DNA of 17,364 nt from a virus. Lineage: Duplodnaviria; Heunggongvirae; Uroviricota; Caudoviricetes. The first letter of the stretch is position 1; each line of letters opens with the position of its first letter. The stretch lies in the IMG/VR virus record IMGVR_UViG_2703718840_000006. The stretch is one strand, 5' to 3'. Below, one piece after another: positions 1 to 17,364 of this stretch. Below the pieces are notes generated by a model that was not told the DNA's origin, searched no databases, and was given only the letters and a program-made list of their open reading frames with translations. A program made the position numbers and the translations under genes.

Positions 1-897
1 CTATGACTTGCTGTTTTCAGTAAGAGTCTTATCATCCAAAGAATTTATTCTAGAAATTCTTTTTAACTCATTAAGATAATCAACCTCGTTTTCTAAGAAC
101 CAATGAAGAACTTTAGAATTGCCAAGTAATTTATTAATATATGACTGGATTATAACGAATTTCAACATATCTGAACCATACTCGGTTTGAAGCTTTTTCG
201 TTTCTTCCGAAGTTGTTGCCATTTCTTGTTCCAGACGAAGTATGGTTTTTTTTATGTCCTTTTTATAGGGAGTGTTTTTCCCTTTATTTACTATCATCGA
301 TGCCGGTGTTGCATCCAAGATGCTCATTGCAAATTTTTTACTATAATTATCAAAATTAATCATTGTACCGACTGCTTCAATTTGGCGAATTGGCTTCATT
401 TTCCTCAAAACGTCAAATGTAGCCTTAGGTATATGTTTATCAGAAAGTTTCGCAATTACACTTGGATCTATGCCGTTCATCACATTCGCTTTATCTTTTA
501 TGGCATCAACAGATATGCCCAAAGCAGCACTAAGTTTTTCAATTGATACTTTTGCCAGAGACTTAATTATCATTCTATGTTCTTCAACTACATTTATATG
601 ATTCACTTGTTTGTTAGGAGTGAAAGCATCATCTATGCTCGAAAGTATACATGGAGCTTTTTCTATACCTAAGTCTTTTAAAGCCTCAACCCTTAAATGG
701 CCATCAAGTATCTTAGTGACATCTTTATCTTTGTCATAGAATACTATTATTGGTTCAATAATACCTAAGCTTTCGATAGAGGTAACTATTTGATGATATT
801 TATGGCTTCGCTTTACGTTTTCTAATAATTCCTTAGATGGAATTAACTTATTAGTTTCCAGGTAAATAAAATTATCGCCAAAACGTATCTGAATCAT
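1..897 (-). CDS. ParB/Srx-family protein (ParB N-terminal domain plus HTH-like region); distal gene of a tandem ParB-like pair
   Basis: 298-aa ORF with stop at 1-3. ParB-box-like GHLRVEA within IIVFYDKDKDVTKILDGHLRVEALKDLG, then an HTH-like segment (SIEKLSAALGISVDAIKDK). Start overlaps the upstream ORF by 4 nt; AGAGG lies 8 nt upstream of the ATG. No adjacent ParA. Confidence 0.6.
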   Translation of the reverse strand: MIQIRFGDNFIYLETNKLIPSKELLENVKRSHKYHQIVTSIESLGIIEPIIVFYDKDKDVTKILDGHLRVEALKDLGIEKAPCILSSIDDAFTPNKQVNHINVVEEHRMIIKSLAKVSIEKLSAALGISVDAIKDKANVMNGIDPSVIAKLSDKHIPKATFDVLRKMKPIRQIEAVGTMINFDNYSKKFAMSILDATPASMIVNKGKNTPYKKDIKKTILRLEQEMATTSEETKKLQTEYGSDMLKFVIIQSYINKLLGNSKVLHWFLENEVDYLNELKRISRINSLDDKTLTENSKS

Positions 898-1790
898 TTT
901 AATACCTCTTTGTTTACTGGGGTTAATATCTGAGATGGTAGTTCTGAAAGATTCTCTTGTTCAAGTATATGTTGAAAGCTTTTATTCATCATTATGATGT
1001 TAAAAATCTCATTTACTATTAGTAGGTTGGTTTTTATGAATTTTGAGTTGTTATAAACAGATTTATGTTCAGCGATACTATTTTCATAAAGCTCAATCAA
1101 CTCCTCTGCAGTCATCCTTTTTGATGGTTTGTGATAATAAAATCCGGCTGCTTTTGCACCTTTATTCCCAACTGTTCTTTGATTTAGAATGTGTTTTATC
1201 TTTATAATGTCCCGACTTTTTATTAATTTTTTATCATATGCTTCGGTAAGAATATCTTGTGCTTCCTCAGTTTCACATCTTGCAAATTGCACTGCGAGAT
1301 ACAGAGGCAAATTACCCCGTTCGACTGCTGAGAGAAGTTTATGCTCTCCCTTATCAAGTAGCATATTAATACTGCTCACCCAGTTCGATGAATATCCAGT
1401 AATCTCACTTATTTCGGAGTCTGAAAGTCCTCTGATTTTCATGTCTTTAATCACCTGTAATAACTCATTAGAACGTGGTCTTCTCCTTGCAATGTTTTCA
1501 ACTAAACTCATAACGTAAGCATCTTCTTCTGATACATCTCTTATAATTGCTGGAATAATAGTTTCACCTAATGCAACGAGAGCCTCTATTCTCCCTTGAC
1601 CACAAATTAAAGCATATTTGAAATCGCCTTCATCAATAGCTCTTACGCTTATTGGCTTGCTTAATCCTCTTTTTTTTATGCTTTCCTTTATTTCTTCATG
1701 CACTACCTTATTTCTTGTTCGTGGGTTAAGAAATTTTATTTTTGCAATCTCAATTTGAATTATTGGGAATTCATTTTTTTCAGGCAGCAT
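894..1790 (-). CDS. ParB-family protein (ParB N-terminal domain, HTH, C-terminal extension)
   Basis: 298 aa. Motifs GQGRIEALVALG and LVENIARRRP in the N-terminal domain, followed by an HTH-like LSDSEISEITGYSSNWVSSINMLL. GAGGG lies 7 nt upstream of the ATG; overlaps the recombinase stop by 11 nt, suggesting translational coupling. Confidence 0.65.
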   Translation of the reverse strand: MLPEKNEFPIIQIEIAKIKFLNPRTRNKVVHEEIKESIKKRGLSKPISVRAIDEGDFKYALICGQGRIEALVALGETIIPAIIRDVSEEDAYVMSLVENIARRRPRSNELLQVIKDMKIRGLSDSEISEITGYSSNWVSSINMLLDKGEHKLLSAVERGNLPLYLAVQFARCETEEAQDILTEAYDKKLIKSRDIIKIKHILNQRTVGNKGAKAAGFYYHKPSKRMTAEELIELYENSIAEHKSVYNNSKFIKTNLLIVNEIFNIIMMNKSFQHILEQENLSELPSQILTPVNKEVLK

Positions 1791-3336
1791 ATAGTTCCCT
1801 CACTTTCATGCGAGTAATAATTTGTAGAAGTTTATCAAGATTATCAAATCTATAGAGATCTAATCGAATGTTGTTTGTTTCCGTCATGCACATTTTATTA
1901 TATTCGTTTTCAATCTTTGGTATGATATAAAAATCAAGAGGTGAAATATTTTGTGAATTCATTCGTATAACAATTGTTATGTCTGCTTTCTGTGAGTTAT
2001 CAAACCGGACTTTCCATCTAAGTTTACCTGATTTCATATGTATGCATTTAGTAACAAGGACGGAAATTAAAAACTCATCATTGATGTAAAGCATTGGGGC
2101 ATATTTATACTCGTCTATATGACAGTTACTTTTTAAAATTTCACCCTTAAAATCCTCAATTATCTCTGAGTAAAATGATCTTAGTGCTTCATTTATTTTG
2201 AGATAGCTGTAATCATGTTCTGGCTTATAACCAATCAAAGTATATGCTCTTAAAAGACCACCAAATCGGGTTCTATAAACAGAAGATGAAGGGCCTGTAT
2301 CATCTTCATCAATGATAAAGCCTGATAGTTTTCCATTAGATTCTAATTTTTGTTTTAGTTTTTCTAATAGATCTTCATTAGTCAAATGAATGGATCGGAG
2401 CTGAATTATTTCTTGAGCTTTATTGTATTTTTTCTTTGAAATAATAGGTTTATATGCCTTGTCACATCTAACCCATTCATGTTTGGGGTTTTTTACAAGC
2501 CTACTTTTTAATTTAGATGAGGTTTTGTTATATATGTTGTTTCCAATATATTTTTCATTTGTCAAAATTTGATGTATTTTTGCACGAGTCCATAATGTTC
2601 CATTTTCTGCAGGTATGTTCTGTTCATTTAATCTCTCAGCAATAATGAATTCTGGGACGTTATTATCTATAAAGAGATCATATATTCTATTTACAATTTT
2701 TATTTCATTTTTTGGTCCCGGAATTAATATTACCCTATCTGTTTGAATACTCTTTCTTTTGCGGAAACTCAATATTTCTTTAGCTATGCCATTTTCGTCT
2801 ACTAAAAGACGTCTCAGCCCATAACCAGCCATACCGCCTTGATGATAACCAAGCTTTATTAAATTTACTTGCCCTATAAATACCTTTTCAGATAGATTCC
2901 TGCTGTGATATGCAGCACTAGATCTTTTTATATTCAGTATAACAGAGGACTCTAAAGGGAAATCTTTAGTGGGTATAGGTTCGGAACAATATATAAGATC
3001 TACACCATTTCTCTCAAATAGAAAGGAATAATATGCCGCTTCATCACTATTTTGAAAACGACCAAAACGGCTCACATCATAAAATAATACAGCCTGTATA
3101 TCTATTTTCTTTTGTTCTACATCGCTAAGTAACTGCTGCAAAGAATGCCTGCCTACGATACTGACTCCGCTCTTACCTGCATCATCGTAGGTATAAGCGA
3201 TTTCCATATTGTTCTTTTCAGCATAATCTTTGATATATTCGGACTGATTATGTAAAGAATATTGCTGATGGTCGGTAGACATCCTCAAGTACTGCGCGAC
3301 CCTAACTCTATGATTTTTGTCATTTTCGCTAGCCAT
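1780..3336 (-). CDS. Large serine recombinase (resolvase catalytic domain plus recombinase domain, divergent C-terminus)
   Basis: 518 aa. N-terminal YLRMSTDHQ (catalytic Ser context) and DDAGKSG; recombinase-domain-like GYHQGGMAGYGLRR. No clear CxxC zinc ribbon seen in the C-terminal ~200 aa. GAGG lies 9 nt upstream of the ATG at 3336. Confidence 0.75.
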   Translation of the reverse strand: MASENDKNHRVRVAQYLRMSTDHQQYSLHNQSEYIKDYAEKNNMEIAYTYDDAGKSGVSIVGRHSLQQLLSDVEQKKIDIQAVLFYDVSRFGRFQNSDEAAYYSFLFERNGVDLIYCSEPIPTKDFPLESSVILNIKRSSAAYHSRNLSEKVFIGQVNLIKLGYHQGGMAGYGLRRLLVDENGIAKEILSFRKRKSIQTDRVILIPGPKNEIKIVNRIYDLFIDNNVPEFIIAERLNEQNIPAENGTLWTRAKIHQILTNEKYIGNNIYNKTSSKLKSRLVKNPKHEWVRCDKAYKPIISKKKYNKAQEIIQLRSIHLTNEDLLEKLKQKLESNGKLSGFIIDEDDTGPSSSVYRTRFGGLLRAYTLIGYKPEHDYSYLKINEALRSFYSEIIEDFKGEILKSNCHIDEYKYAPMLYINDEFLISVLVTKCIHMKSGKLRWKVRFDNSQKADITIVIRMNSQNISPLDFYIIPKIENEYNKMCMTETNNIRLDLYRFDNLDKLLQIITRMKVRELYAA

Positions 3337-3506
3337 GCACGAAACCTCATGGATGATTCAATACAATGTAGTGGATAAAATTGATCAAATTTCAACCGAA
3401 TTCAACTGTTTTATCATTGATTAGAGCGAATTTGGTAGATCTTCGAGGTGTATGATAATCGAGAAGAGATGTGAATTATTTAGCTGATATGACCGACAGC
3501 TTTCGT

Positions 3507-3556
3507 TATGTGGACTCAATGTCCCCATTTGTAAATGGCTATGCTTAGTCCACATA
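3507..3556. repeat. Nested inverted repeat (10-bp arms TATGTGGACT/AGTCCACATA around an inner CCATTT-GT-AAATGG palindrome)
   Basis: Read directly: perfect 10-bp arms at 3507-3516 and 3547-3556, inner palindrome at 3525-3538. Lies between the integrase stop and the recombinase start. Candidate protein-binding or recombination site; no U-tract, so not a canonical terminator. Confidence 0.4.
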
Positions 3557-3618
3557 GGTTAATGGTGTGATTATTAATTCTTTAACTAAATCAAGATAGT
3601 TAATCCATCATGGGAGAG

Positions 3619-4848
3619 TTATGCGGCAATAACTTTGCATTTTTGAGACGAAACATAGTCACTCCACCATTGCATGAGAACCACCCGTTCAGTGAGATAC
3701 TCTGCACGATTGTAGGCTGCAATTATTTCATCTTTCTTCGAGTGGGCAAGGGCGGCTTCTAAGACATCAGTCCTAAACTTGCCAGACTCCTCAGCAGCCG
3801 TTCTAGCAATGGATCGCATACCGTGAGCTACAAGCTCACCTCCGAAACCCATACGGATTATGGCCGCATTAGCTGTTTGTTCATGCATGTGATTGAGTGG
3901 AGCTTTGATACTGGGGAACACCCACTCTCTATGCCCGCTGATGACTTTCATTAAATCCAAAACTCGCAAAGCTTCTTTGCTCAGTGGAACTTTGTGAGGC
4001 TTCTTCATTTTCATAAACTCCGCCGGGATGTTCCACATGCCAGTTTCAATATCAATATCTGACCATCTTGTGCGAACAGCTTCACCTGGGCGAACCCATG
4101 TGAGAAGTTGCCACTCAATCAGTAGCCTTGTTTCCAAACGGATAGAAGCATTGTTTAGAGCAACCAAGAAGCGAGGGAGTTCGGAAGGGGGTAATGCTGG
4201 CATATTCTGTTTTTTTGGCTTGCTGAACCGTTGCCCCAGGTTGTCTGCCGGGTTGAATTCTATGAGTTCTTCTGTTGCTGCATAGCGGAAAATTTCATTC
4301 AGGCGGGATATGATGCGGCGAAGTGTTTCAAGGACACCTCGTTTTTCTATGGGTTCTAAATGCTGTTTAAGCATTTTAGGGCGAATCTCCTTAATTGGGG
4401 TATCACCCAATGTGGAAAAGATATTTCTCTCTAGGCTTCGCCAGATGTCGTTAGCATGATCTTGGGAGATGCCTGACGTTTTGACTTTCTCATCAAGCCA
4501 CTTCTTGGCTACTGCTTGAAATGTATGTTCCGTGGCATCTTTCAGTGCATTGGCTTTTTGGTTGTTATGAACTTGGGGGTCTATACCATTTGTAAGCAAC
4601 GACAAGTATTCATCACGTAAAGCTCGTGCCTTCGCAAGTGTAAGGTGAGGATAGGTTCCTAAGCTCACCTTAGTTCGCTTTTTGGTCACAGGCACTGCAT
4701 ATCTGAAATACCAATTTTTCTTCCCTCCCTTCGCCAGGGGAGCGATTCGCAACAGCAAACCATCGCCGTCAAAAAGGTTAACCTCTTTTTCGGCAGGTTT
4801 GGTGCTTTTGATTTCAGTGTCAGTGAGCTTCTTAGCGATTTTGGCCAT
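3619..4848 (-). CDS. P4-type tyrosine integrase (arm-binding N-terminal domain plus catalytic domain)
   Basis: Start chosen at the internal ATG (4846-4848, MAKIAKKLTDTEIK) with GAGGG upstream; the track ORF extends to 4929 with a non-canonical start. N-terminal KLTDTEIKSTKP...LFDGDGLLL...WYFRY is typical of P4-like integrases; C-terminal HGMRS and AAYNRAEY supply the HxxR and catalytic Tyr. Lies immediately downstream of the ssrA 3' fragment, same orientation. Confidence 0.85.
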   Translation of the reverse strand: MAKIAKKLTDTEIKSTKPAEKEVNLFDGDGLLLRIAPLAKGGKKNWYFRYAVPVTKKRTKVSLGTYPHLTLAKARALRDEYLSLLTNGIDPQVHNNQKANALKDATEHTFQAVAKKWLDEKVKTSGISQDHANDIWRSLERNIFSTLGDTPIKEIRPKMLKQHLEPIEKRGVLETLRRIISRLNEIFRYAATEELIEFNPADNLGQRFSKPKKQNMPALPPSELPRFLVALNNASIRLETRLLIEWQLLTWVRPGEAVRTRWSDIDIETGMWNIPAEFMKMKKPHKVPLSKEALRVLDLMKVISGHREWVFPSIKAPLNHMHEQTANAAIIRMGFGGELVAHGMRSIARTAAEESGKFRTDVLEAALAHSKKDEIIAAYNRAEYLTERVVLMQWWSDYVSSQKCKVIAA

Positions 4849-5014
4849 GTTTGGGACCCTCGATTTTAGGACCCATCTTCGTGGGTCCCATTCAGGGTGC
4901 CATAACTCGTAGTTCTCAGCAATTCTCACTAGACTACAATAGACGTAAAAAAGCCCGCAGAGCTTGTGCTGTGCGGGCTTAGTAGACTTTACTGAACTTC
5001 AGTACATCAATATT

Positions 5015-5047
5015 TGGTGGAGCTGGCGGGAGTTGAACCCGAGTCCG
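5015..5047 (-). ncRNA. ssrA: 3'-terminal fragment of tmRNA gene ssrA (T-arm, acceptor 3' strand, CCA); integration-site core copy, not a full gene
   Basis: Minus-strand read CGGACTCGGGTTCAACTCCCGCCAGCTCCACCA matches my recollection of the E. coli tmRNA 3' end (GGGTTCAACTCCCGCCAGCTCCACCA). The adjacent upstream sequence is AT-rich and unrelated to tmRNA, and would overlap the methyltransferase CDS, so only the terminal ~33 nt are present. Confidence 0.75.
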
Positions 5048-5119: not shown

Positions 5120-6019
5120 TTATGTCTGGATGTGGTCGTCAACACATCCTCTTTTAAATATAGGCGCTTTTACCTTAGTTGGATCATCTGTTTTAAAGAT
5201 TTTCAATCGTTCACTGAAGAACATTACCTCAGATCCTTTGTACCGATCTTGAGCACTGTAGTTTATTCCATATACTAATGATGATGTCTTATACATAGCT
5301 TGGATCTCAGGAGTGTTATCGTAAGAAACAATCCAAGGCGTTTTAATATTATTCTGTACGACTTTTGCAACCCTAACATGATCATCATGATCATAATGGT
5401 TGATATATAAACCTTTACCTTTTATGTAATAAGGTGGATCCAAATATGTTAATGAGTTTTGTGGCAATTGAATAACTATTTTTTTTATGAAATCAATTGC
5501 ATCCATGTTATATAAATCTATTCTGTGACGATTTTCTGATATTTTATGGATTCGAGAAATCAAATCACTCTTATTATAGCGAGCGTCAAGCTTCCATTTC
5601 CCTTCTTGATTTTTACCGCCAATTACACCACCTTTTAATATTCCAGAACGATTTGTTCTATTGAGAAAAAAGGTTGAGAAACCAATTGTTAAAAGATCAT
5701 GGTCTTTAGGATTATTAATTATATCTTTCTGCCTAAACCATTCATCCATTGTAACTTCTGTTCTTTCAATTAAAGAACATAATTGATCTGCATGATTTAA
5801 TACACTGTGCCAAAAAGCATAAACAGAAATATTAATATCATTAAGGATGATTTTTTCAGCTGCATTTAGATGTAACAGTTTCAATGCTAAACCAGCACCC
5901 CCAGCATATGGTTCGGCATAATGTATAGGCGAAAGATTATTTTCTTCAATAATCCGAAGCATGAAATTTGCAAGCTTGCCTTTACCGCCAGGATAGCGAA
6001 GTGGGGTGTTAAAACGCAT
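5120..6019 (-). CDS. Dam-family (D12 class) N6-adenine DNA methyltransferase
   Basis: 299 aa. Motifs in Dam order: LRYPGGKGK, YAEPYAGGAGLA (AdoMet-binding), FFLNRTNRSG, YLDPPYY (catalytic DPPY). GAGG lies 6 nt upstream of the ATG at 6019. Target sequence cannot be read from sequence. Confidence 0.85.
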   Translation of the reverse strand: MRFNTPLRYPGGKGKLANFMLRIIEENNLSPIHYAEPYAGGAGLALKLLHLNAAEKIILNDINISVYAFWHSVLNHADQLCSLIERTEVTMDEWFRQKDIINNPKDHDLLTIGFSTFFLNRTNRSGILKGGVIGGKNQEGKWKLDARYNKSDLISRIHKISENRHRIDLYNMDAIDFIKKIVIQLPQNSLTYLDPPYYIKGKGLYINHYDHDDHVRVAKVVQNNIKTPWIVSYDNTPEIQAMYKTSSLVYGINYSAQDRYKGSEVMFFSERLKIFKTDDPTKVKAPIFKRGCVDDHIQT

Positions 6020-6098: not shown

Positions 6099-7832
6099 TT
6101 AGTTATCTGACAGATATGATGAGATGGTAGCAGAATCGACACCATGTCCACTTATCATAATAACTTTAAGACTCTTTATTAGTTCATTCTTGAAGCTATC
6201 CGATTGCACAGGATTTTTCTCGACCCAATATCGATATGGGTTATCTTTAACTCGTCCTTTGACTTGGTCCTGAAATTGAGTCGTATGTGCAAAATCTTTA
6301 AACAGTTTTCTCACTCTCCCGCCATGATTTTTGTTAACTTTTTTATAATTATCTATAAGGATTTTTAAATCAATCGGAGCGTTACCAATCTTTAGCGTTG
6401 TAATTATGTCTTTAGCTGTTTTCATAAAAACAGATTTTGTAAATTTATTTTTATTTTCCCAATATGCATCATCAGGTGGTAAATTATATAAAAACTCAAA
6501 AATCATTTGGTCTGGAGGTAAGGTGCTTGGAAGCAAACATAAGTTTTTTTCTTTTTTGGCTTTTTTTGCATTAGCACTGTTGTCGTGAACAACATCACCG
6601 TCTAAGACGATCAAGCTTTTAGCTGTAAATTCTGGTATTTTTCTTGCCATTAAGTCAAGCATGGCAGAGCAGCTAATATTTATATTTCCTAATGGATTTA
6701 ATATTTTATTTATTTTTCGATCTGTTATCAATTGTTTGAAAAAGTCGAAACCTTCTTTGTCTTCAAAATATACATTTGCTTTTGGAAGACAAATGTCATC
6801 ATTAATTTTTACAGTTTCAACATGTAAATCAGCGTGGATATCTGTCCATGAAAGATTATTCTTTGTTTTAATATCTCCATATGTGTCTGTAAGATATATT
6901 GTTTTAAAGCTATCACTATCTTGTTTTGAACGATTATAGATATCCTCTATTATTAATGGAGAGTGCGAGGTCATGATTATTTGCAGATCGTATTGTTTTG
7001 CTGCTTTAGTTAGAATATTAATTAGCTCTAACTGTGCAGCAGGGAAAAGACCTGCATCGGCTTCATCAATTAACAATATTCCGCCATGATAATCAGAATA
7101 AGTTTCCTTCAATCTTTTAAATGAAAAAATTGCTTGGATTAATTGTCCAACATTATCTTCACCAACAGATACTGATTGGTGATCATAATTGTCACCATGG
7201 ACAACCATTGAATCGATAGTACCTTTTGTTGCTGTTACTGAGCTTCCATTGTTTTTTAGTAAGAGTTGGTTACTCATCATTCTGATTTCATCAGAATTTT
7301 CATTGATGTACTGAACATCCCGTGTTGAGTAATCAGTCCTTAATGTAATAGGAAGAAGTCGTGCTAAGCTTAAAAAAATAACAGGATGAGTAACGTTTCT
7401 ACTTTGGTTTTTTTCCGGTATTGAATCATTTCCCCTGACTACAGGCCTTGATTTATCTCTGTCACTGTAGCTGTATAAACCTAATGTTAGTTTTTCAAGA
7501 TGTTTGTTCGATGCACCATCATAGACACTAATTTTGACGTCCATTGAACCAGGAACATCAAATTGTTCTGAAAGCCTAAAATGTTCGCTGAAAGCTGACT
7601 TGAAGCTGCCATTTGTTAATGTTTTATATTGTGTTAAATCAGTCTCAGGGTTTTTGGTAAAGTCCTTTGTAAAGCTAAATATTTGGGCGATAATGCCAAG
7701 AATTGTGGATTTAGATGTGCCATTTTTACCACAAATAACAGTTAGGCGAGAACCAAACTCGATGTTTATATTTTTCAGTCCGCGAAACTTCACAACATTT
7801 ATATTTTTTAGTTTGGTAATTTGATTTGCCAT
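6099..7832 (-). CDS. ABC/SMC-type ATPase with TOPRIM-like C-terminal region (OLD-family or fused PARIS-like nuclease candidate)
   Basis: Walker A GKNGTSKST, Walker B ILLIDEAD, H-loop IMTSHSP. The C-terminal ~250 aa contain FEDKEG and LDGD acidic motifs about 55 residues apart, consistent with TOPRIM (not verified). Start placed at internal ATG 7832 (MANQITKLKNI; GGAG upstream; Walker A then sits at the usual distance); the track ORF starts at 7883 with no SD. Confidence 0.7.
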   Translation of the reverse strand: MANQITKLKNINVVKFRGLKNINIEFGSRLTVICGKNGTSKSTILGIIAQIFSFTKDFTKNPETDLTQYKTLTNGSFKSAFSEHFRLSEQFDVPGSMDVKISVYDGASNKHLEKLTLGLYSYSDRDKSRPVVRGNDSIPEKNQSRNVTHPVIFLSLARLLPITLRTDYSTRDVQYINENSDEIRMMSNQLLLKNNGSSVTATKGTIDSMVVHGDNYDHQSVSVGEDNVGQLIQAIFSFKRLKETYSDYHGGILLIDEADAGLFPAAQLELINILTKAAKQYDLQIIMTSHSPLIIEDIYNRSKQDSDSFKTIYLTDTYGDIKTKNNLSWTDIHADLHVETVKINDDICLPKANVYFEDKEGFDFFKQLITDRKINKILNPLGNINISCSAMLDLMARKIPEFTAKSLIVLDGDVVHDNSANAKKAKKEKNLCLLPSTLPPDQMIFEFLYNLPPDDAYWENKNKFTKSVFMKTAKDIITTLKIGNAPIDLKILIDNYKKVNKNHGGRVRKLFKDFAHTTQFQDQVKGRVKDNPYRYWVEKNPVQSDSFKNELIKSLKVIMISGHGVDSATISSYLSDN

Positions 7833-7890
7833 GTTTGTATCTTGCTCCGTAAAATGGCCACAAATTGTGGCCAATAGTTTCATGCTTGGA

Positions 7891-9057
7891 TTATATTGTT
7901 ATCTTCTTCAAGCTTGTTTGTCCATCATATTCCTTCAGATATGAGCCATAGTGCCTGAAAAGCATCTCCGGTCCTTTATGCCCCATTTGAGCTGCAAGCC
8001 AAAACAGGTTTGCTCCTCGGCTGATATGGCTGGTGGCGAATGTATGCCTGGTTTGATATGGATTTCTGTATCGAATACCTGCTTTCCGCAATGTTGGAAC
8101 CCATGCTTTTTTCCTGATTGCATCAGCACTTGCCCAAGGCTTATTGGTCTTTGGGTCTTCAAAGACAGTAGCATCCTTCATGAATGTAAATGGCTTCTGA
8201 TTTATCAGCGCCAACATTGCTTCTTCTGTCAGTTCAACTTTACGAGTACCTGCTTTTGTCTTTGTCCCTTTGATAACACCGACAACACTTGCGCTCTGGA
8301 CATGGGCAGTTTTTCCAACAAAGTCGATATCACGCCATCGAAGGGCACATAATTCAGAACTACGCAGGCCTGTATGTATAGCGAACCGGAACAGATTCTC
8401 CCATTGTTTGTTTCCGGCTGCTGCTAGTAATGCATCAACTTCTGCTGGTGATAGCGGATCAACCACGTAGCTGCTTTCTGCTTCTGACTTATCACTTTGG
8501 TAGCGCGAAGCAGTTACCAACGATACGGGGTTAATTTGAAGTACCCCATCGGTTACGGCTTCATCAAGTGCTGACCGCAGGAAAGATAACTGGTTGCGAA
8601 TTGTTTTTAAGGTCGTTTTCTGGCTTTGAATCCACGCTTTCAGGATTGCTGGTGTTAATTCACTTGCAGGGCAAATGTGGAGTGAGGCTAACGCACTACG
8701 GCATTTTTTATAACCACCAATCGTTGAGGGTGAGAGTTTTCTCGTTTCGCAGATTTCAAGGTATTCGTCCAAGTACATTTTTACCGTTTTGCCTGCAGCA
8801 GCATTACCAAAAATTTTCAAACGAGCAGAACGGGGAAAATATTCCGCATAAATGAATGTTCCCCTTTCGATCTTATTATGAATTTCGCCGAGTGTGCGCT
8901 CGGCGTATTTAATGTTCTTTGGTGTTACTTCCAGATTGGAAAGAGGCTCACGACATTTAACTCCTTTATAGGTGAAAGTTATATTGATCGTTTCGCCCTG
9001 GCGGTGTTTCCTGATTGTTACGCCGCGCGGTAGTTTGAGCAGTTTTGTCTGGCCCAT
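7891..9057 (-). CDS. int: Lambdoid-type tyrosine integrase
   Basis: 388 aa. C-terminal catalytic signature QTRHTFATSH...GH...RHYGSY. Preceded by an overlapping excisionase-like gene. Transcribed toward the ssrA-derived att side, as in lambda. Confidence 0.85.
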   Translation of the reverse strand: MGQTKLLKLPRGVTIRKHRQGETINITFTYKGVKCREPLSNLEVTPKNIKYAERTLGEIHNKIERGTFIYAEYFPRSARLKIFGNAAAGKTVKMYLDEYLEICETRKLSPSTIGGYKKCRSALASLHICPASELTPAILKAWIQSQKTTLKTIRNQLSFLRSALDEAVTDGVLQINPVSLVTASRYQSDKSEAESSYVVDPLSPAEVDALLAAAGNKQWENLFRFAIHTGLRSSELCALRWRDIDFVGKTAHVQSASVVGVIKGTKTKAGTRKVELTEEAMLALINQKPFTFMKDATVFEDPKTNKPWASADAIRKKAWVPTLRKAGIRYRNPYQTRHTFATSHISRGANLFWLAAQMGHKGPEMLFRHYGSYLKEYDGQTSLKKITI

Positions 9058-10512: not shown

Positions 10513-11337
10513 TCAGGCGGTAAAAGTACCAATAAAGGTTTCTACTTTGCTGTCTTTGAATTTCTCAACAAGCAGATCACGAAATTCGTTAGCCATTTCT
10601 TCCTGCACTGCTTCCAGCTGAATAATGCGCAGAACCAGTACCGGACGATCGCCAGTGATAATGCTGAGGCGTAATTTAAACGGACGTTCTTTCAGGCCTT
10701 CAAACGGAACGCATTTAAATTCAAATGCCACTGGCATAATGTCTTTGGTCTTCGCTTCGACAGATTCCATCAGGGAGCGTTTGCCGCTGAAGTCATTATC
10801 TTCAAAATCAGCGGTCTGGTTTGCTTCAATCGTGATTTTACGGACTGCCGCAGCCGCTTTTGTTGCCTGAATGGCGTCACCATTAGCATCAAAGCCCACA
10901 AGGTAGTCGGCCCAGTCTTCAATCCATTCTGCCAGTGACTTCTGGGAGTTACGCTCGCCGTTAACAGACAACAGGGCAGAGAACGGTGCTGTCTTTTTCA
11001 GTTTGAGAGTGGCAGTGTTATCTGCGTGACCTGGCTCATCAATAGTACCCAGGTTAAGCACACTGACGGCACGCATATTATCGGCATCGATAAAGCAGCG
11101 GGTGCCTTCATCTGCAAGATCTTTAGAATAACGGGTAAAGTCATCGATGCTGGCAGTGGAAAGCGCACCACGGAAACGGAAACGATTTAAATTAAATTTT
11201 TCCAGATCATGAATGCGGAAATTCTCAGGCAATGCCACAGCATCGGCACCAATCTTACTGATAATTTCATTAACACCCTGAGCAGAAATAAGGGCATGGA
11301 TTTGATTAATTGCGGTTGCGTCTAAGTTCTGAGACAT
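10513..11337 (-). CDS. DUF2303-like phage protein (YfdQ-like by size and synteny)
   Basis: 274-aa ORF, the size I recall for E. coli YfdQ, in the same operon order. No catalytic motif recognised. Confidence 0.6.
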
Positions 11338-14332: not shown

Positions 14333-14695
14333 ATGCTCTTTGACTTGGCTTCCGGGGACGCACTATTTATCTCTGAACCAGGCCCATTAGCGGAAAATGT
14401 CACCTGGTTGTCGCCGGAAGGGGAATATCAGAAGTGGAACGGTACAGCCTGGGTGAAAGATGCAGAAGCAGAAAAACTATTCCGGATCCGGGAGGCGGAA
14501 GAAACAAAAAACAGCCTGATGCAGGTAGCCAGTGAGCATATAGCGCCGCTTCAGGATGCTGTAGATCTGGAGATCGCAACGGAGGAAGAAAATTCGTTGC
14601 TGGAAGCCTGGAAAAAGTATCGGGTGTTGCTGAACCGTGTTGATACATCAACTGCACCTGATATTGAGTGGCCGATAATTCCTGTAACATCATAG
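14333..14695 (+). CDS. tfa: Tail fibre assembly protein (lambda Tfa family, short form)
   Basis: 120 aa; ATG with AGGGGA upstream. Sequence [14 protein letters not shown]...[19 protein letters not shown]...[25 protein letters not shown] closely matches my recollection of the lambda Tfa C-terminal two-thirds. Confidence 0.8.
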
Positions 14696-15992: not shown

Positions 15993-16187
15993 TCACTCGT
16001 CAGCTGACTCCCAAGTATCTTTCAGAGTTTCCTGAACAAAAGTTTTAGCTGAATCTTTATCGGCGGTGCGCCTAACAGAAAAACCATCGTTGCTGGTGGC
16101 TTTTACGATCATCTCCACATCGTCATAATGCTCGCCAATGTATTGGGTTAATTCTTCCTTTAATGCGTCTACAGCGCCGTTTGGCAT
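15993..16187 (-). CDS. DinI-family protein (short form)
   Basis: 64 aa. [13 protein letters not shown] and the C-terminal TWESADE match the DinI pattern (AIDALAGEL...ETWESADDWF, from memory). In-frame stop 7 codons upstream excludes a longer form. Two LexA boxes upstream. Confidence 0.75.
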
Positions 16188-16289: not shown

Positions 16290-16470
16290 TCAAGACTTCG
16301 TTTTAGCTGCATAAGAAAAAAGAGATGGATACATTCGGAAAGATTTTGATGGTGGTAGGTTAAGTGAATAGCCTAAAGGTGTTTTACCCCAATTATTCCC
16401 CGGTATTTCTCCGCATAAAAAACAATCATAAAAACAACAGCCATAATAGGCTGGTTCTTAAGGGATTTTT

Positions 16471-16510
16471 GGTCCACGAGAGAATTTGAACCTCCGACCC
16501 CCGACACCCC
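16471..16510 (-). other. tRNA-like 3' fragment (T-arm plus acceptor 3' strand, no encoded CCA); possible attachment-site or mobile-element junction remnant
   Basis: Minus-strand read GGGGTGTCGGGGGTCGGAGGTTCAAATTCTCTCGTGGACC: T-loop TTCAAAT flanked by a 5-bp stem with two G-U pairs, then 7-nt acceptor strand plus discriminator. No complementary 5' acceptor strand upstream, and no match to any E. coli tRNA I can recall. Confidence 0.25.
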
Positions 16511-16531
16511 ATAATGGTGTAATTAATCAGG

Positions 16532-16900
16532 TTAAATATTTAGCAGATCCTCTACAATATCATTAAACCCAGATGCCTGTTTAGATACAGAATTGAATAA
16601 GTCTCTAAGTGCTTGTGTTTGCTCAAAAGTTTCCCAAAGTGTTTTATAACTTGGCGTTACAATTGCTAATACTAAGCCTTCCGCCCATGACCATTCATGT
16701 TCATCAAAATAGTAGCGATATTTTCTGCTGTATATAACAAAATCCTTTTCCTTATATTTAGCATGAAACACAACTTGAATTATATCCTGTGTACCATTAA
16801 CAAGGTTTTCAGGCGCATCAATTGCCATCCAATTTATCATTTTTTGGACAGTTAACTTATTTAATGAAACAATTAGCTTTGTGGTTTTATCGTTATGCAT
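16532..16900 (-). CDS. Hypothetical protein, second gene of a coupled two-gene operon
   Basis: 122-aa ORF; ATG 2 nt after the stop of the upstream ORF. AT-rich. No recognisable motif. Confidence 0.5.
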   Translation of the reverse strand: MHNDKTTKLIVSLNKLTVQKMINWMAIDAPENLVNGTQDIIQVVFHAKYKEKDFVIYSRKYRYYFDEHEWSWAEGLVLAIVTPSYKTLWETFEQTQALRDLFNSVSKQASGFNDIVEDLLNI

Positions 16901-16902
16901 AA

Positions 16903-17364
16903 TTAGTCCAGTTGCATATCTTTCACAATTTCGTTAACTCTTGAGTTGAGTATACTCAACTTCTCATAGAGCTTCCAGGCTTGGTCTTGGTCATTGATAT
17001 TAATGGAGATTTCTTTTCTTCGAAAGATTCCTTTGGGTTTGACTTCATCAAAAAATATATCAATCTTTGAGCGTTCCTTGGTTGGAAGCCTGCTGAAAAG
17101 GCTTTCAGTTAGCACTGCACACTCAGTAAACTCCTTACGTATAAATTCTTTCTGAGTAACCCAGTCTCCAATAGCATCATTTATCAATGAGGCTTTTTTT
17201 TGAAGATTGCTATGGATTTCAGGTATTCGAACCTTGTTTCTGAGAGTGGCCTTCAATGAACGCGTCGTAAAAAAAAGTTTTACAGTTACAACAAAACCGA
17301 CAATACCCGCTAGGGAGGATATGTCAGTTACCGTCTGTGATAGGGGCCAAGTCAGGATATCCAT
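16903..17364 (-). CDS. Hypothetical membrane-anchored protein (N-terminal TM helix); 5' end at the window edge, may be partial
   Basis: 153-aa ORF whose ATG is the last three bases of the window. Hydrophobic segment ISSLAGIVGFVVTVKLFF near the N-terminus, then a charged soluble domain. Confidence 0.45.
   Translation of the reverse strand: MDILTWPLSQTVTDISSLAGIVGFVVTVKLFFTTRSLKATLRNKVRIPEIHSNLQKKASLINDAIGDWVTQKEFIRKEFTECAVLTESLFSRLPTKERSKIDIFFDEVKPKGIFRRKEISININDQDQAWKLYEKLSILNSRVNEIVKDMQLD

What the first reader, a model, noticed from the sequence alone, without database searches (positions are those of the whole stretch)
16532..17364. AT-rich coupled two-gene operon at the right edge: membrane-anchored protein plus small soluble protein of unknown function
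Seen: two minus-strand ORFs separated by 2 nt. The first has one N-terminal transmembrane-like helix and a charged C-terminal domain, the second is a 122-aa soluble protein. Neither matches a family I recognise. They lie next to an SOS-regulated dinI-like gene and the HEPN protein, in a region that looks like a defence/moron cluster. Inference: possibly a small abortive-infection, toxin-antitoxin or superinfection-exclusion pair. The upstream gene may be incomplete at the window edge.
Basis: inference. Interest (0 to 1): 0.45.

Follow-up and report, generated by a model that had tools for sequence, protein, structure and literature searches.

The report
Phage-borne membrane/soluble two-gene cargo cassette
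Two tightly coupled small genes (a membrane-anchored helical protein and a small acidic cytosolic partner) form a conserved, uncharacterised cassette that temperate phages, plasmids and islands of Proteobacteria carry next to known anti-phage genes, so it is a good but unproven candidate for a new phage-defence system.

Summary
Window 16903-17364(-) encodes a complete 153-aa protein and 16532-16900(-) a 122-aa protein, 2 nt apart, at 36% GC. The first gene is not truncated: the window ends on its ATG, and upstream lie a terminator and the tmRNA gene ssrA. The pair is cargo of a lambda-like phage. A 44.6-kb circular copy of that phage places it beside attP, between the tail-fibre genes and the integration module. 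Only 13 of 5,426 complete E. coli genomes carry it. The 122-aa protein belongs to a large unannotated family (403 clusters at 50% identity; Enterobacteriaceae, Serratia, Pseudomonas aeruginosa, Comamonadaceae). In all 13 independent contexts examined it sits -13 to +3 nt behind a homologous gene for a ~150-aa basic, single-pass membrane protein. Both genes are under strong purifying selection. No Pfam, NCBIfam, PHROG, PADLOC, PDB or fold match is informative. Neighbours are typically defence genes (PD-lambda-5, PARIS-like, restriction-modification, TIR). In a P2-like prophage the pair follows the CI-type repressor. DefensePredictor (Science 2026) lists the 122-aa protein as a predicted novel defence gene, with no experimental test found. 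Best reading: a lysogen-expressed two-component anti-phage module with a membrane effector. The mechanism is inferred, not shown.

The parts
16903..17364 (-). Gene A (ORF1): 153 aa, basic (pI 9.2). Short periplasmic N-tail (MDILTWPL...), one transmembrane helix (residues 15-33), a positively charged juxtamembrane stretch with a conserved K-x-R-x-P-E-I motif, then a cytosolic helical domain modelled as a four-helix bundle. RefSeq WP_000353836.1.
16532..16900 (-). Gene B (ORF2): 122 aa, acidic (pI 5.5), cytosolic, mixed alpha/beta. W24 is invariant; T17, W72 and L101 are nearly invariant; the C-terminal helix carries an acidic ...Q-x-S-G-x-D-D...LL motif. RefSeq WP_000551278.1. It starts 2 nt after the stop of gene A, which suggests translational coupling.
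   Evidence: ORF listing. Family of 403 representatives at E <= 1e-3, of which 145 of the 149 listed beyond the query's own cluster are 114-145 aa. Alignment A5. No Pfam or PDB match. Junction and pI statistics. Listed as 'Predicted novel defense gene' in DefensePredictor Table S10.
16470..16519 (-). 3' half of a tRNA-Pro(GGG) gene, from the anticodon loop to ACCA, slightly degraded, about 12 nt after the stop of gene B. It is read as a relic attP core of a tRNA-Pro-integrating relative and marks the distal edge of the cassette.
   Evidence: In other E. coli genomes the same dinI flank abuts an annotated tRNA-Pro gene (H14/H15). ARAGORN calls no tRNA in the window.
16428..16453 (-). Hairpin plus T-run (CAGCCTATTATGGCTG TTGTTTTTAT), the likely transcription terminator of the two-gene unit.
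   Evidence: Terminator scan on L001 20639-20654 (-), which equals window 16438-16453. The hairpin is conserved in Klebsiella and Leclercia.
5015..5039 (-). Context: a second exact copy of the 25-nt 3' end of ssrA. This is the distal att site of the roughly 12.5-kb prophage remnant that carries the cassette. The proximal att site is the ssrA gene itself, 182 nt beyond the right edge of the window.
   Evidence: Pattern search finds 1 match with 0 expected by chance. attP, lysogen junction and distal end are aligned in A9.

Best explanation
The two genes form one conserved cassette carried by mobile elements, here by a lambda-like temperate phage that integrates into the tmRNA gene ssrA.

Gene A gives a basic, single-pass inner-membrane protein (N-terminus out) with a cytosolic helical bundle. 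Gene B gives a small acidic cytosolic protein. The two are made in fixed proportion through a -13 to +3 nt gene junction.

The most likely role is a lysogen-expressed anti-phage (superinfection-immunity) module. B is proposed to bind the cytosolic domain of A and hold or regulate it. An infection cue would then change the complex, and A, the only part that can act on a cellular structure, would perturb the inner membrane. That would abort the infection or stop it at an early, membrane-proximal stage.

Shown here: the cassette, its phage and mobile-element carriage, the universal pairing, purifying selection, the topology signals, the opposite charges of the two proteins, defence-rich neighbourhoods, and placement in a repressor operon in one lineage.

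Inferred, not shown: the defence role itself, the physical A-B interaction, which partner senses and which acts, and membrane damage as the output.
For: (1) Phage cargo. NZ_CP148393.1 is a complete 44.6-kb circular lambdoid genome. Its order is J, lom, tail fibre, tfa | 315-aa protein, dinI, B<-A | attP (ssrA core) | a 3-gene ATPase module | int. The 182-nt stretch from ssrA to gene A, terminator included, is identical in the circular phage and the lysogen.

(2) Universal pairing. Homologues of B from 85% down to about 30% identity always have an A-type gene directly upstream. The contexts are: ssrA prophages of E. coli, Klebsiella and Leclercia; an island with PARIS-like AAA_15+DUF4435 and a DpnII-type enzyme; a DnaB replication module; a Serratia lambdoid prophage end; a P. 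aeruginosa integrase-proximal island/prophage; a P2-like prophage; a Klebsiella IncF plasmid beside TIR and PLD genes; a glmS-downstream islet with toxin-antitoxin modules; a chromosomal locus with PadR, MacB-type and PIN genes; and four short metagenome or sequencing-run contigs. All A-type partners share the N-terminal TM helix, the positive C-flank, the RxPE motif and the KDxxW C-terminus.

(3) Selection. dN/dS is 0.07-0.13 for B. For A, dS is saturated at dN 0.12-0.18. The pair is intact in all 13 E. coli carriers, including remnants that have lost all virion genes, while the adjacent dinI is frameshifted.

(4) Expression in lysogens. In the P2-like prophage the pair follows or overlaps the CI-type repressor gene (HTH + Peptidase_S24), with no terminator-like or promoter-like site found between them.

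(5) Defence neighbourhood. Across attP in this window lies PD-Lambda-5 (component B at E 6e-124, plus an AAA_15/21 ATPase). Other loci carry RM systems, TIR proteins and a PARIS-like pair.

(6) Complementary charge. The A family has pI 8.6-10 and the B family pI 4.6-5.6 in 11 of 11 pairs.

(7) No invariant catalytic-type residue set in either family, which leaves the membrane anchor as the plausible effector.

(8) Independent published prediction. DefensePredictor Table S10 lists WP_000551278.1 with mean log-odds 7.33 (strict cutoff 4) as a 'Predicted novel defense gene' with no HHblits or Foldseek link to known defence (PMC13092281).
Against: There are no experimental data, and the pair is not known to be among the 42 systems validated in PMC13092281. 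That paper's overall validation rate for predicted units was 45%.

No PADLOC model matches any of five diverged pairs. The pair is absent from 50,697 sequenced phage isolates.

The AF2 models are weak (pLDDT 57 for B, 69 for A), so the folds are uncertain and no complex was modelled.

Defence-rich accessory regions also hold toxin-antitoxin modules, anti-defence genes and unrelated morons. One context (L025) shows no obvious mobile element.

Gene A (WP_000353836) was not found in the held, truncated copy of Table S10.

No sigma-70-like promoter was found in the 182 nt upstream of gene A, which sits 40 nt after a strong terminator. How it is expressed in this lysogen is therefore unknown.
Confidence: 0.42

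Rival explanations
1. Superinfection exclusion at the inner membrane. The A-B complex sits in the cytoplasmic membrane and blocks DNA entry by incoming phages, for example by interfering with the tape-measure protein or with the ManYZ/PtsG-type entry route. The cell is not killed.
For: Gene A is a single-pass inner-membrane protein. The carriers are temperate siphophage-like and P2-like prophages, and the pair sits next to tail-fibre and host-range cargo. In one lineage it appears to be co-transcribed with the repressor. Known exclusion proteins of temperate phages are small inner-membrane proteins (established knowledge: HK97 gp15, P22 SieA, T4 Imm).
Against: Known exclusion proteins act alone, whereas here a cytosolic partner is strictly conserved (13 of 13 contexts). 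Only about 14 residues of A face the periplasm. The cassette also occurs on a conjugative plasmid and in chromosomal islets, where protecting a prophage from its own relatives is not at issue. There is no sequence similarity to any exclusion protein.
Confidence: 0.15
2. A toxin-antitoxin or addiction module with no primary role against phages. A is a membrane-damaging toxin held in check by B, and loss of the element kills or arrests the cell, which stabilises prophages, plasmids and islands.
For: It is a tight two-gene operon on plasmids, prophages and islets that also carry PhdYeFM/PIN and HigBA modules. It persists in heavily decayed prophage remnants. The two products have opposite charge, which suggests a neutralising complex.
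Against: No match to any TA family was found in Pfam, NCBIfam or PADLOC. B has no recognisable DNA-binding domain for autoregulation. The putative toxin comes first and the antitoxin second, the reverse of most type II systems (established knowledge). TA and abortive-infection roles are not mutually exclusive, so this rival overlaps with the main explanation.
Confidence: 0.13
3. A lysogenic-conversion or phage-regulatory function unrelated to defence, for example a membrane-tethered regulator or adaptor that affects prophage induction, host envelope physiology or fitness. The defence-like neighbourhood would then simply reflect the general accessory-gene slot next to attP.
For: Accessory slots next to attP and tail fibres hold many kinds of morons (dinI, SRAP, UmuDC, Lom). 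Neither protein has an enzymatic signature. The modelled four-helix bundle is a common scaffold for signalling and adaptor proteins. One context lacks mobile-element marks.
Against: The patchy distribution (13 of 5,426 E. coli genomes) across Gamma- and Betaproteobacteria, on phages, plasmids and islets, and repeatedly beside RM, TIR, PARIS-like and PD-lambda-5 genes, is the typical pattern of defence cargo. The DefensePredictor score is 7.3.
Confidence: 0.2
4. Holin/antiholin-like lysis control: A would be a holin-type membrane protein and B its cytosolic regulator.
For: A is small, single-pass and has a charged cytosolic tail.
Against: In the complete phage the lysis cassette (essD holin, rrrD endolysin) is about 17 kb away in the late operon. 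The pair also occurs on plasmids and in non-phage islets. In the P2-like prophage it sits in the repressor operon, that is, expressed during lysogeny. No PHROG lysis family matches.
Confidence: 0.03

Closest known systems
Lambda RexA/RexB abortive-infection system
   Same: A prophage-encoded two-gene unit of one membrane protein and one cytosolic protein with no enzymatic domains. Rex is expressed in the lysogen, co-transcribed with cI, and the pair follows a CI-type repressor in the P2-like locus. The proposed logic, a cytosolic partner controlling a membrane effector that collapses membrane potential, is the same.
   Different: No sequence similarity: PADLOC, Pfam and PHROG give no hit. RexB has four TM helices and RexA is 279 aa (established knowledge). 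Here the membrane protein has one TM helix plus a cytosolic helical bundle, and the soluble partner is 122 aa. The gene order is membrane protein first.
Kiwa (KwaA/KwaB)
   Same: A two-gene defence system pairing a membrane protein with a cytosolic partner. It offers the alternative wiring in which the membrane protein senses and the soluble protein acts.
   Different: KwaA is multi-pass and KwaB is a roughly 300-aa DUF4868 protein (established knowledge). No PADLOC Kiwa model matches.
Small inner-membrane superinfection-exclusion proteins of phages (HK97 gp15, P22 SieA, T4 Imm)
   Same: Moron-type cargo of phages, small inner-membrane proteins, expressed from the prophage.
   Different: Those act as single proteins and need no conserved cytosolic partner. 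There is no sequence similarity. This cassette also travels on plasmids and chromosomal islets.
DefensePredictor 'uncharacterized cluster' WP_000551278.1 (DeWeirdt, Mahoney and Laub, Science 2026, PMC13092281, Table S10)
   Same: It is the same protein as gene B, identified by its RefSeq accession and listed in that table as a 122-aa, 369-nt gene, with mean log-odds 7.33, labelled 'Predicted novel defense gene'.
   Different: That entry is a single-gene machine-learning score among 1,041 clusters. It gives no partner gene, no family description, no context analysis and no experiment. The work here adds the obligate partner, the family size, the phage/attP location and the architecture.
PD-Lambda-5 (Vassallo et al. 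2022), the neighbour across attP
   Same: It is defence cargo in the accessory slot flanking the attP of the same prophage.
   Different: The proteins are unrelated (ATPase plus D12 methyltransferase). It is relevant only as context.

Membership tests
RexAB-type abortive infection | Sequence or profile homology to RexA or RexB | tested here: not met
   No PADLOC, Pfam or PHROG hit at E <= 1 for either protein, nor for four further diverged pairs at E <= 0.1 apart from one chance-level Cas8a match, E 0.008.
RexAB-type abortive infection | Multi-pass (4-TM) membrane component acting as an ion channel | tested here: not met
   Only one hydrophobic segment per A-type protein in all 11 full-length partners. 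Channel activity cannot be tested with these tools.
RexAB-type abortive infection | Expressed in the lysogen together with the prophage repressor | tested here: inconclusive
   Met in the P2-like prophage: the gene overlaps or follows the CI-type repressor with no terminator-like or promoter-like site found between them. Not the arrangement in this window, where the pair lies behind the ssrA terminator.
Type II toxin-antitoxin module | Match to a known toxin or antitoxin family, with a DNA-binding antitoxin | tested here: not met
   No Pfam, NCBIfam or PADLOC match.
Type II toxin-antitoxin module | Toxicity of one product neutralised by the other | not testable with these tools
   Needs expression experiments.
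Phage superinfection-exclusion proteins (SieA, Imm, HK97 gp15) | Homology to a described exclusion protein | tested here: not met
   No PHROG or Pfam hit. No relative in 50,697 phage genomes by tblastn.
Phage superinfection-exclusion proteins (SieA, Imm, HK97 gp15) | Block of DNA entry without cell death | not testable with these tools
   Needs infection assays.
Holin/antiholin | Location in the lysis cassette next to the endolysin | tested here: not met
   essD and rrrD lie at 354-1066 of the circular phage and the pair at 18237-19069.
Kiwa | KwaA multi-pass protein plus KwaB with DUF4868 | tested here: not met
   No PADLOC or Pfam hit.
DefensePredictor predicted-defence clusters | The same RefSeq protein listed with log-odds above the strict cutoff of 4 | tested here: met
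   WP_000551278.1 has mean log-odds 7.33 (range 6.87-7.85) in Table S10. It is the accession annotated for gene B.
Mobile-element defence cargo (operational definition) | Patchy distribution, carriage on phages, plasmids and islands, and co-location with known defence genes | tested here: met
   13 of 5,426 E. coli genomes. Phage, plasmid and island carriage. Neighbours include PD-lambda-5, PARIS-like, RM and TIR genes.
Mobile-element defence cargo (operational definition) | Measured protection against phage | not testable with these tools
   No experiment is available, and none was found in the literature searched.

The most novel reading that the evidence does not exclude
The pair founds a new, widespread family of two-component, membrane-acting anti-phage systems in Proteobacteria (at least 403 clusters at 50% identity). 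It would be built from two folds with no described relatives: a single-pass helical-bundle effector and a small acidic sensor or regulator.

In the ssrA-integrating lambdoid phages the cassette has no promoter of its own. Integration wires it directly behind the very highly transcribed tmRNA gene, so its expression in lysogens would come from read-through of the phage-supplied ssrA terminator.
Probability: 0.3. Interest if true: 0.65.

Novelty: new variant of a known kind. Interest (0 to 1): 0.42.

Why it matters
If the cassette protects against phages, it adds a compact system (about 0.85 kb, two proteins, no enzymatic domain) to the defence repertoire. Its family spans E. coli, Klebsiella, Salmonella, Serratia and Pseudomonas aeruginosa, all of which are targets of phage therapy. 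Its parts have no structural precedent, so the mechanism would be new at the molecular level even though the logic (membrane effector plus cytosolic partner) is familiar.

This work gives experimenters three things: the correct unit (both genes, not only the one flagged by machine learning), natural variants for testing, and a tractable strain (E. coli HS, where the pair survives in a minimal prophage remnant).

The position directly behind a phage-supplied ssrA terminator is also a clean case for asking how promoter-less prophage cargo is expressed.

Tried and rejected
**Database and structure searches that gave nothing useful**
- Pfam, NCBIfam, PHROG and PADLOC scans of both proteins and of diverged family members found nothing above noise. 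The weak BrxA, DUF4130, MLKL_N and SesA hits (E 0.01-0.05) each appear in one member only and are treated as chance.
- Profile searches against PDB sequences gave PspA at E 0.035 for B and coiled-coil proteins (DC-SIGNR neck, haemagglutinin HA2, ZorA tail) for A, all compositional.
- tblastn against 50,697 phage genomes found no match.
IMG/VR yielded only two loci.

**Readings that were rejected**
- A truncated gene at the window edge.
- A holin.
- A third conserved gene: the downstream neighbours differ between contexts, and the SRAP gene that recurs in Klebsiella and Serratia belongs to the UmuDC/SOS cargo.
- A promoter of its own in the ssrA-gene A spacer: none was detected, though the scan is crude.

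**Literature**
- Full-text searches for the RefSeq accessions found nothing.
- Brenes and Laub 2025 (Cell Host Microbe) is not held in the library, so I could not check whether the pair was tested there.
Full report
**1. The observation**

The minus strand of the window carries ORF1 at 16903-17364 (153 aa) and ORF2 at 16532-16900 (122 aa). They are separated by 2 nt (GAC TAA TT ATG).

ORF1 has a single hydrophobic segment at residues 15-33. Its N-flank is acidic and its C-flank strongly basic, which points to an N-out/C-in single-pass protein. The rest is charged and helical. ORF2 has no hydrophobic segment and is acidic.

GC content is 39% for ORF1 and 32.5% for ORF2. No Pfam, NCBIfam, PHROG or PADLOC family matches either protein.

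The description is therefore correct, apart from the suspicion that ORF1 is truncated.

**2. Where the window sits, and the true 5' end**

An Rfam hit to the E. coli sRNA IS009 and a megablast search place the window in E. coli. The 1.5-kb segment holding the pair occurs at 99.7% identity or more in only 13 of 5,426 complete E. coli genomes, among them strain HS.

In these genomes the gene order is smpB, ssrA (tmRNA), 182 nt, ORF1, ORF2. The window ends exactly on the ORF1 start codon. Upstream there is an in-frame stop 34 codons away and a strong hairpin terminator 40 nt before the ATG. All orthologues begin with the same MDILTWPL. ORF1 is complete.

**3. The pair is phage cargo beside attP**

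Within it the order is: tail fibre assembly gene | 315-aa protein, dinI, ORF2<-ORF1 | attP | a three-gene ATPase module | int.

An alignment of this attP with the lysogen junction shows two things:
- The ssrA 3' core is shared.
- The whole 182-nt stretch up to ORF1, terminator included, is identical and so comes from the phage.

After integration the phage therefore supplies the 3' end and the terminator of ssrA.

The window also holds a second exact copy of the ssrA 3' end at 5015-5039. This is the far att site of a roughly 12.5-kb remnant that has lost all virion genes. E. coli HS retains only ssrA, the pair, a frameshifted dinI, the 315-aa gene, tfa and IS elements. The pair is intact in every carrier.

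**4. Orthologues and selection**

Word-based protein searches found the two proteins only in Enterobacteriaceae: Klebsiella, Raoultella, Leclercia, Cronobacter and Salmonella. In the Klebsiella and Leclercia loci fetched, the pair sits in the same place, 182 nt after ssrA, and is followed by variable prophage cargo (SRAP, UmuDC, DinI, TIR, a Tad2-like gene, tailspikes, GpJ).

Evidence for purifying selection on both genes:

| Gene | Identity at codon positions 1 / 2 / 3 (E. coli vs Klebsiella) | dN and dN/dS (E. coli vs Klebsiella and Leclercia) |
|---|---|---|
| ORF1 | 0.84 / 0.93 / 0.44 | dN 0.12-0.18, dS saturated |
| ORF2 | 0.91 / 0.93 / 0.61 | dN/dS 0.07-0.13 |

DNA homology between the E. 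coli copy and the Klebsiella and Leclercia copies runs from ssrA to 100-150 nt past ORF2 and then stops. This defines a cassette of about 1.2 kb.

**5. A large hidden family with an obligate partner**

An exhaustive profile search with ORF2 found 403 representatives (50%-identity clusters) at E <= 1e-3 and 97 at E <= 1e-10. Of the 149 listed beyond the query's own cluster, 145 are 114-145 aa long. None matches a Pfam family or a PDB sequence.

Named members come from Serratia, Pseudomonas aeruginosa (more than 700 contigs), a Comamonadaceae MAG and a Pseudomonadota MAG.

I looked up the genomic context of ten diverged representatives and one plasmid hit. In every case a 145-163-aa gene lies directly upstream, with a junction of -13 to +3 nt.

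These upstream proteins are homologous to ORF1, or share its architecture down to about 15% identity. The shared features are:
- a short N-tail, often with a conserved Trp
- one TM helix
- a basic juxtamembrane stretch
- an R-x-P-E motif
- a helical domain
- a KDxxW C-terminus

The A family is basic (pI 8.6-10) and the B family acidic (pI 4.6-5.6) in all 11 pairs. Together with the ssrA prophages and locus L007, that makes 13 independent contexts, all paired.

**6. Contexts**

| Context | Neighbouring features |
|---|---|
| Lambdoid prophage ends in Serratia | SRAP and UmuDC next to tail fibres |
| P2-like prophage | pair follows or overlaps the CI-type repressor gene, beside an Eco29kI RM system, in the slot before gpD; no terminator-like or promoter-like site found between repressor and pair |
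| P. aeruginosa integrase-proximal region | also present in a 53.7-kb IMG/VR viral contig |
| Island (L007) | PARIS-like AAA_15+DUF4435 pair and a DpnII-type enzyme |
| Klebsiella IncF conjugative plasmid | TIR and PLD genes |
| Replication module | downstream of DnaB |
| Islet downstream of glmS | PhdYeFM/PIN and HigBA modules |
| Chromosomal locus | no obvious mobile-element marks |

In this window the other side of attP carries PD-Lambda-5: component B at E 6e-124, plus an AAA_15/21 ATPase. In the circular phage that slot holds a different ATPase module.

Rare, mobile, swapped between element types and surrounded by defence genes: this is the usual signature of defence cargo. It is also compatible with addiction modules.

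**7. Structure**

AF2 with shallow alignments gave the following:

Neither family alignment shows an invariant set of catalytic-type residues.

**8. Literature**

Full-text searches for the accessions found nothing.

The supplement of DeWeirdt, Mahoney and Laub (DefensePredictor, Science 2026, PMC13092281) does list ORF2 (WP_000551278.1). It appears in Table S10, "uncharacterized_clusters", with a mean log-odds of 7.33 (strict cutoff 4). It is labelled "Predicted novel defense gene" and has no HHblits or Foldseek link to known defence.

That paper validated 42 of 94 tested predicted units. I found nothing indicating that this pair was tested, and its sequence motifs do not occur in the held supplements. 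Gene A was not found in the truncated copy of the table that is held.

**9. Mechanism**

Shown:
- a strictly conserved, probably translationally coupled pair: a basic membrane-anchored helical protein and an acidic cytosolic protein
- carriage by mobile elements
- placement consistent with expression alongside the repressor in one prophage lineage
- retention in decayed prophages

Inferred: the two proteins form a complex at the inner face of the membrane. Because neither has an enzymatic signature, the membrane anchor is the likely effector and the small partner its sensor or regulator. Infection would release or activate A, which would perturb the membrane. This is Rex-like logic built from unrelated parts.

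I give 0.42 to a defence role with this wiring. The rivals are:
- an exclusion mechanism at DNA entry, 0.15
- a pure addiction module, 0.13
- a non-defence moron, 0.20
- a holin, 0.03

**10. Expression puzzle**

In the ssrA phages gene A starts 40 nt after a strong terminator whose stem shows compensatory changes between genera. No sigma-70-like promoter is detectable in the 182-nt spacer.

The spacer is more conserved between genera (85%) than the coding DNA of ORF1 and ORF2 (72-82%). It also folds far better than shuffled controls (z = -4.6). It is probably the attP arm.

Expression in the lysogen may depend on read-through from ssrA. In the circular phage it may depend on transcription coming from the int side. 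This is speculation that RNA-seq could test.

**11. Verdict**

This is a real, complete and conserved two-gene cassette of unknown biochemical function, and a credible but unvalidated candidate anti-phage module. One of its two genes has already been flagged by a published predictor.

It belongs to no described defence family. I rate it a new variant of a known kind, with moderate interest.

Noticed in passing
window 16470-16519 (-) and 16428-16453 (-); also L004/L005 about 10860-10960: Just after the stop of ORF2 lies the 3' half of tRNA-Pro(GGG), from the anticodon loop to ACCA, followed by a hairpin terminator. It is conserved in the E. coli, Klebsiella and Leclercia copies. The cassette is therefore bracketed by two tRNA-type att cores: the ssrA core upstream and the tRNA-Pro half downstream. 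This suggests the integration module was swapped in an ancestor that integrated at tRNA-Pro.
   Followed up: partly
window 5120-6019 (-) and 6099-7883 (-): A PD-Lambda-5-like defence system lies between the integrase (7891-9057) and the distal att site: component B (a D12 methyltransferase, PADLOC E 6e-124) plus an AAA_15/AAA_21 ATPase. In the circular phage NZ_CP148393.1 the same slot holds a different three-gene ATPase module.
   Followed up: partly
window 1-5039: A second island sits in tandem beyond the duplicated ssrA 3' end (5015-5039). It carries a P4-type tyrosine integrase (3619-4929), a large serine recombinase (1780-3336) and two ParB/RepB-like proteins (894-1790 and 1-897), all AT-rich.
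   Followed up: partly
L001 21566-21747 (the 182 nt just beyond the right edge of the window): The phage-supplied spacer between ssrA and ORF1 is about 85% identical between E. coli and Klebsiella or Leclercia, while synonymous sites of the adjacent genes are saturated. It folds much better than shuffled controls (z = -4.6) and ends in a terminator with compensatory stem changes. It is probably the attP arm, possibly also a structured RNA, and no promoter for ORF1 was detected in it.
   Followed up: partly
Like the pair, it stays intact in all decayed remnants. It may be a separate single-gene defence candidate.
   Followed up: no
window 15993-16187 (-): The DinI-like ORF (Pfam E 9e-14) is annotated as frameshifted in RefSeq genomes, so it looks like a pseudogene sitting between intact cargo genes.
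   Followed up: no
window 14454-14652 (+): A full-length Rfam match to the E. coli sRNA IS009 (220 bits) lies inside the prophage remnant.
   Followed up: no
L005 14365-14550; L003 14831-15613: The Klebsiella prophages that carry the pair also carry a Tad2-like (anti-Thoeris) gene, or a TIR-domain gene, a few kb away. The same accessory region therefore mixes defence and counter-defence cargo.
   Followed up: no
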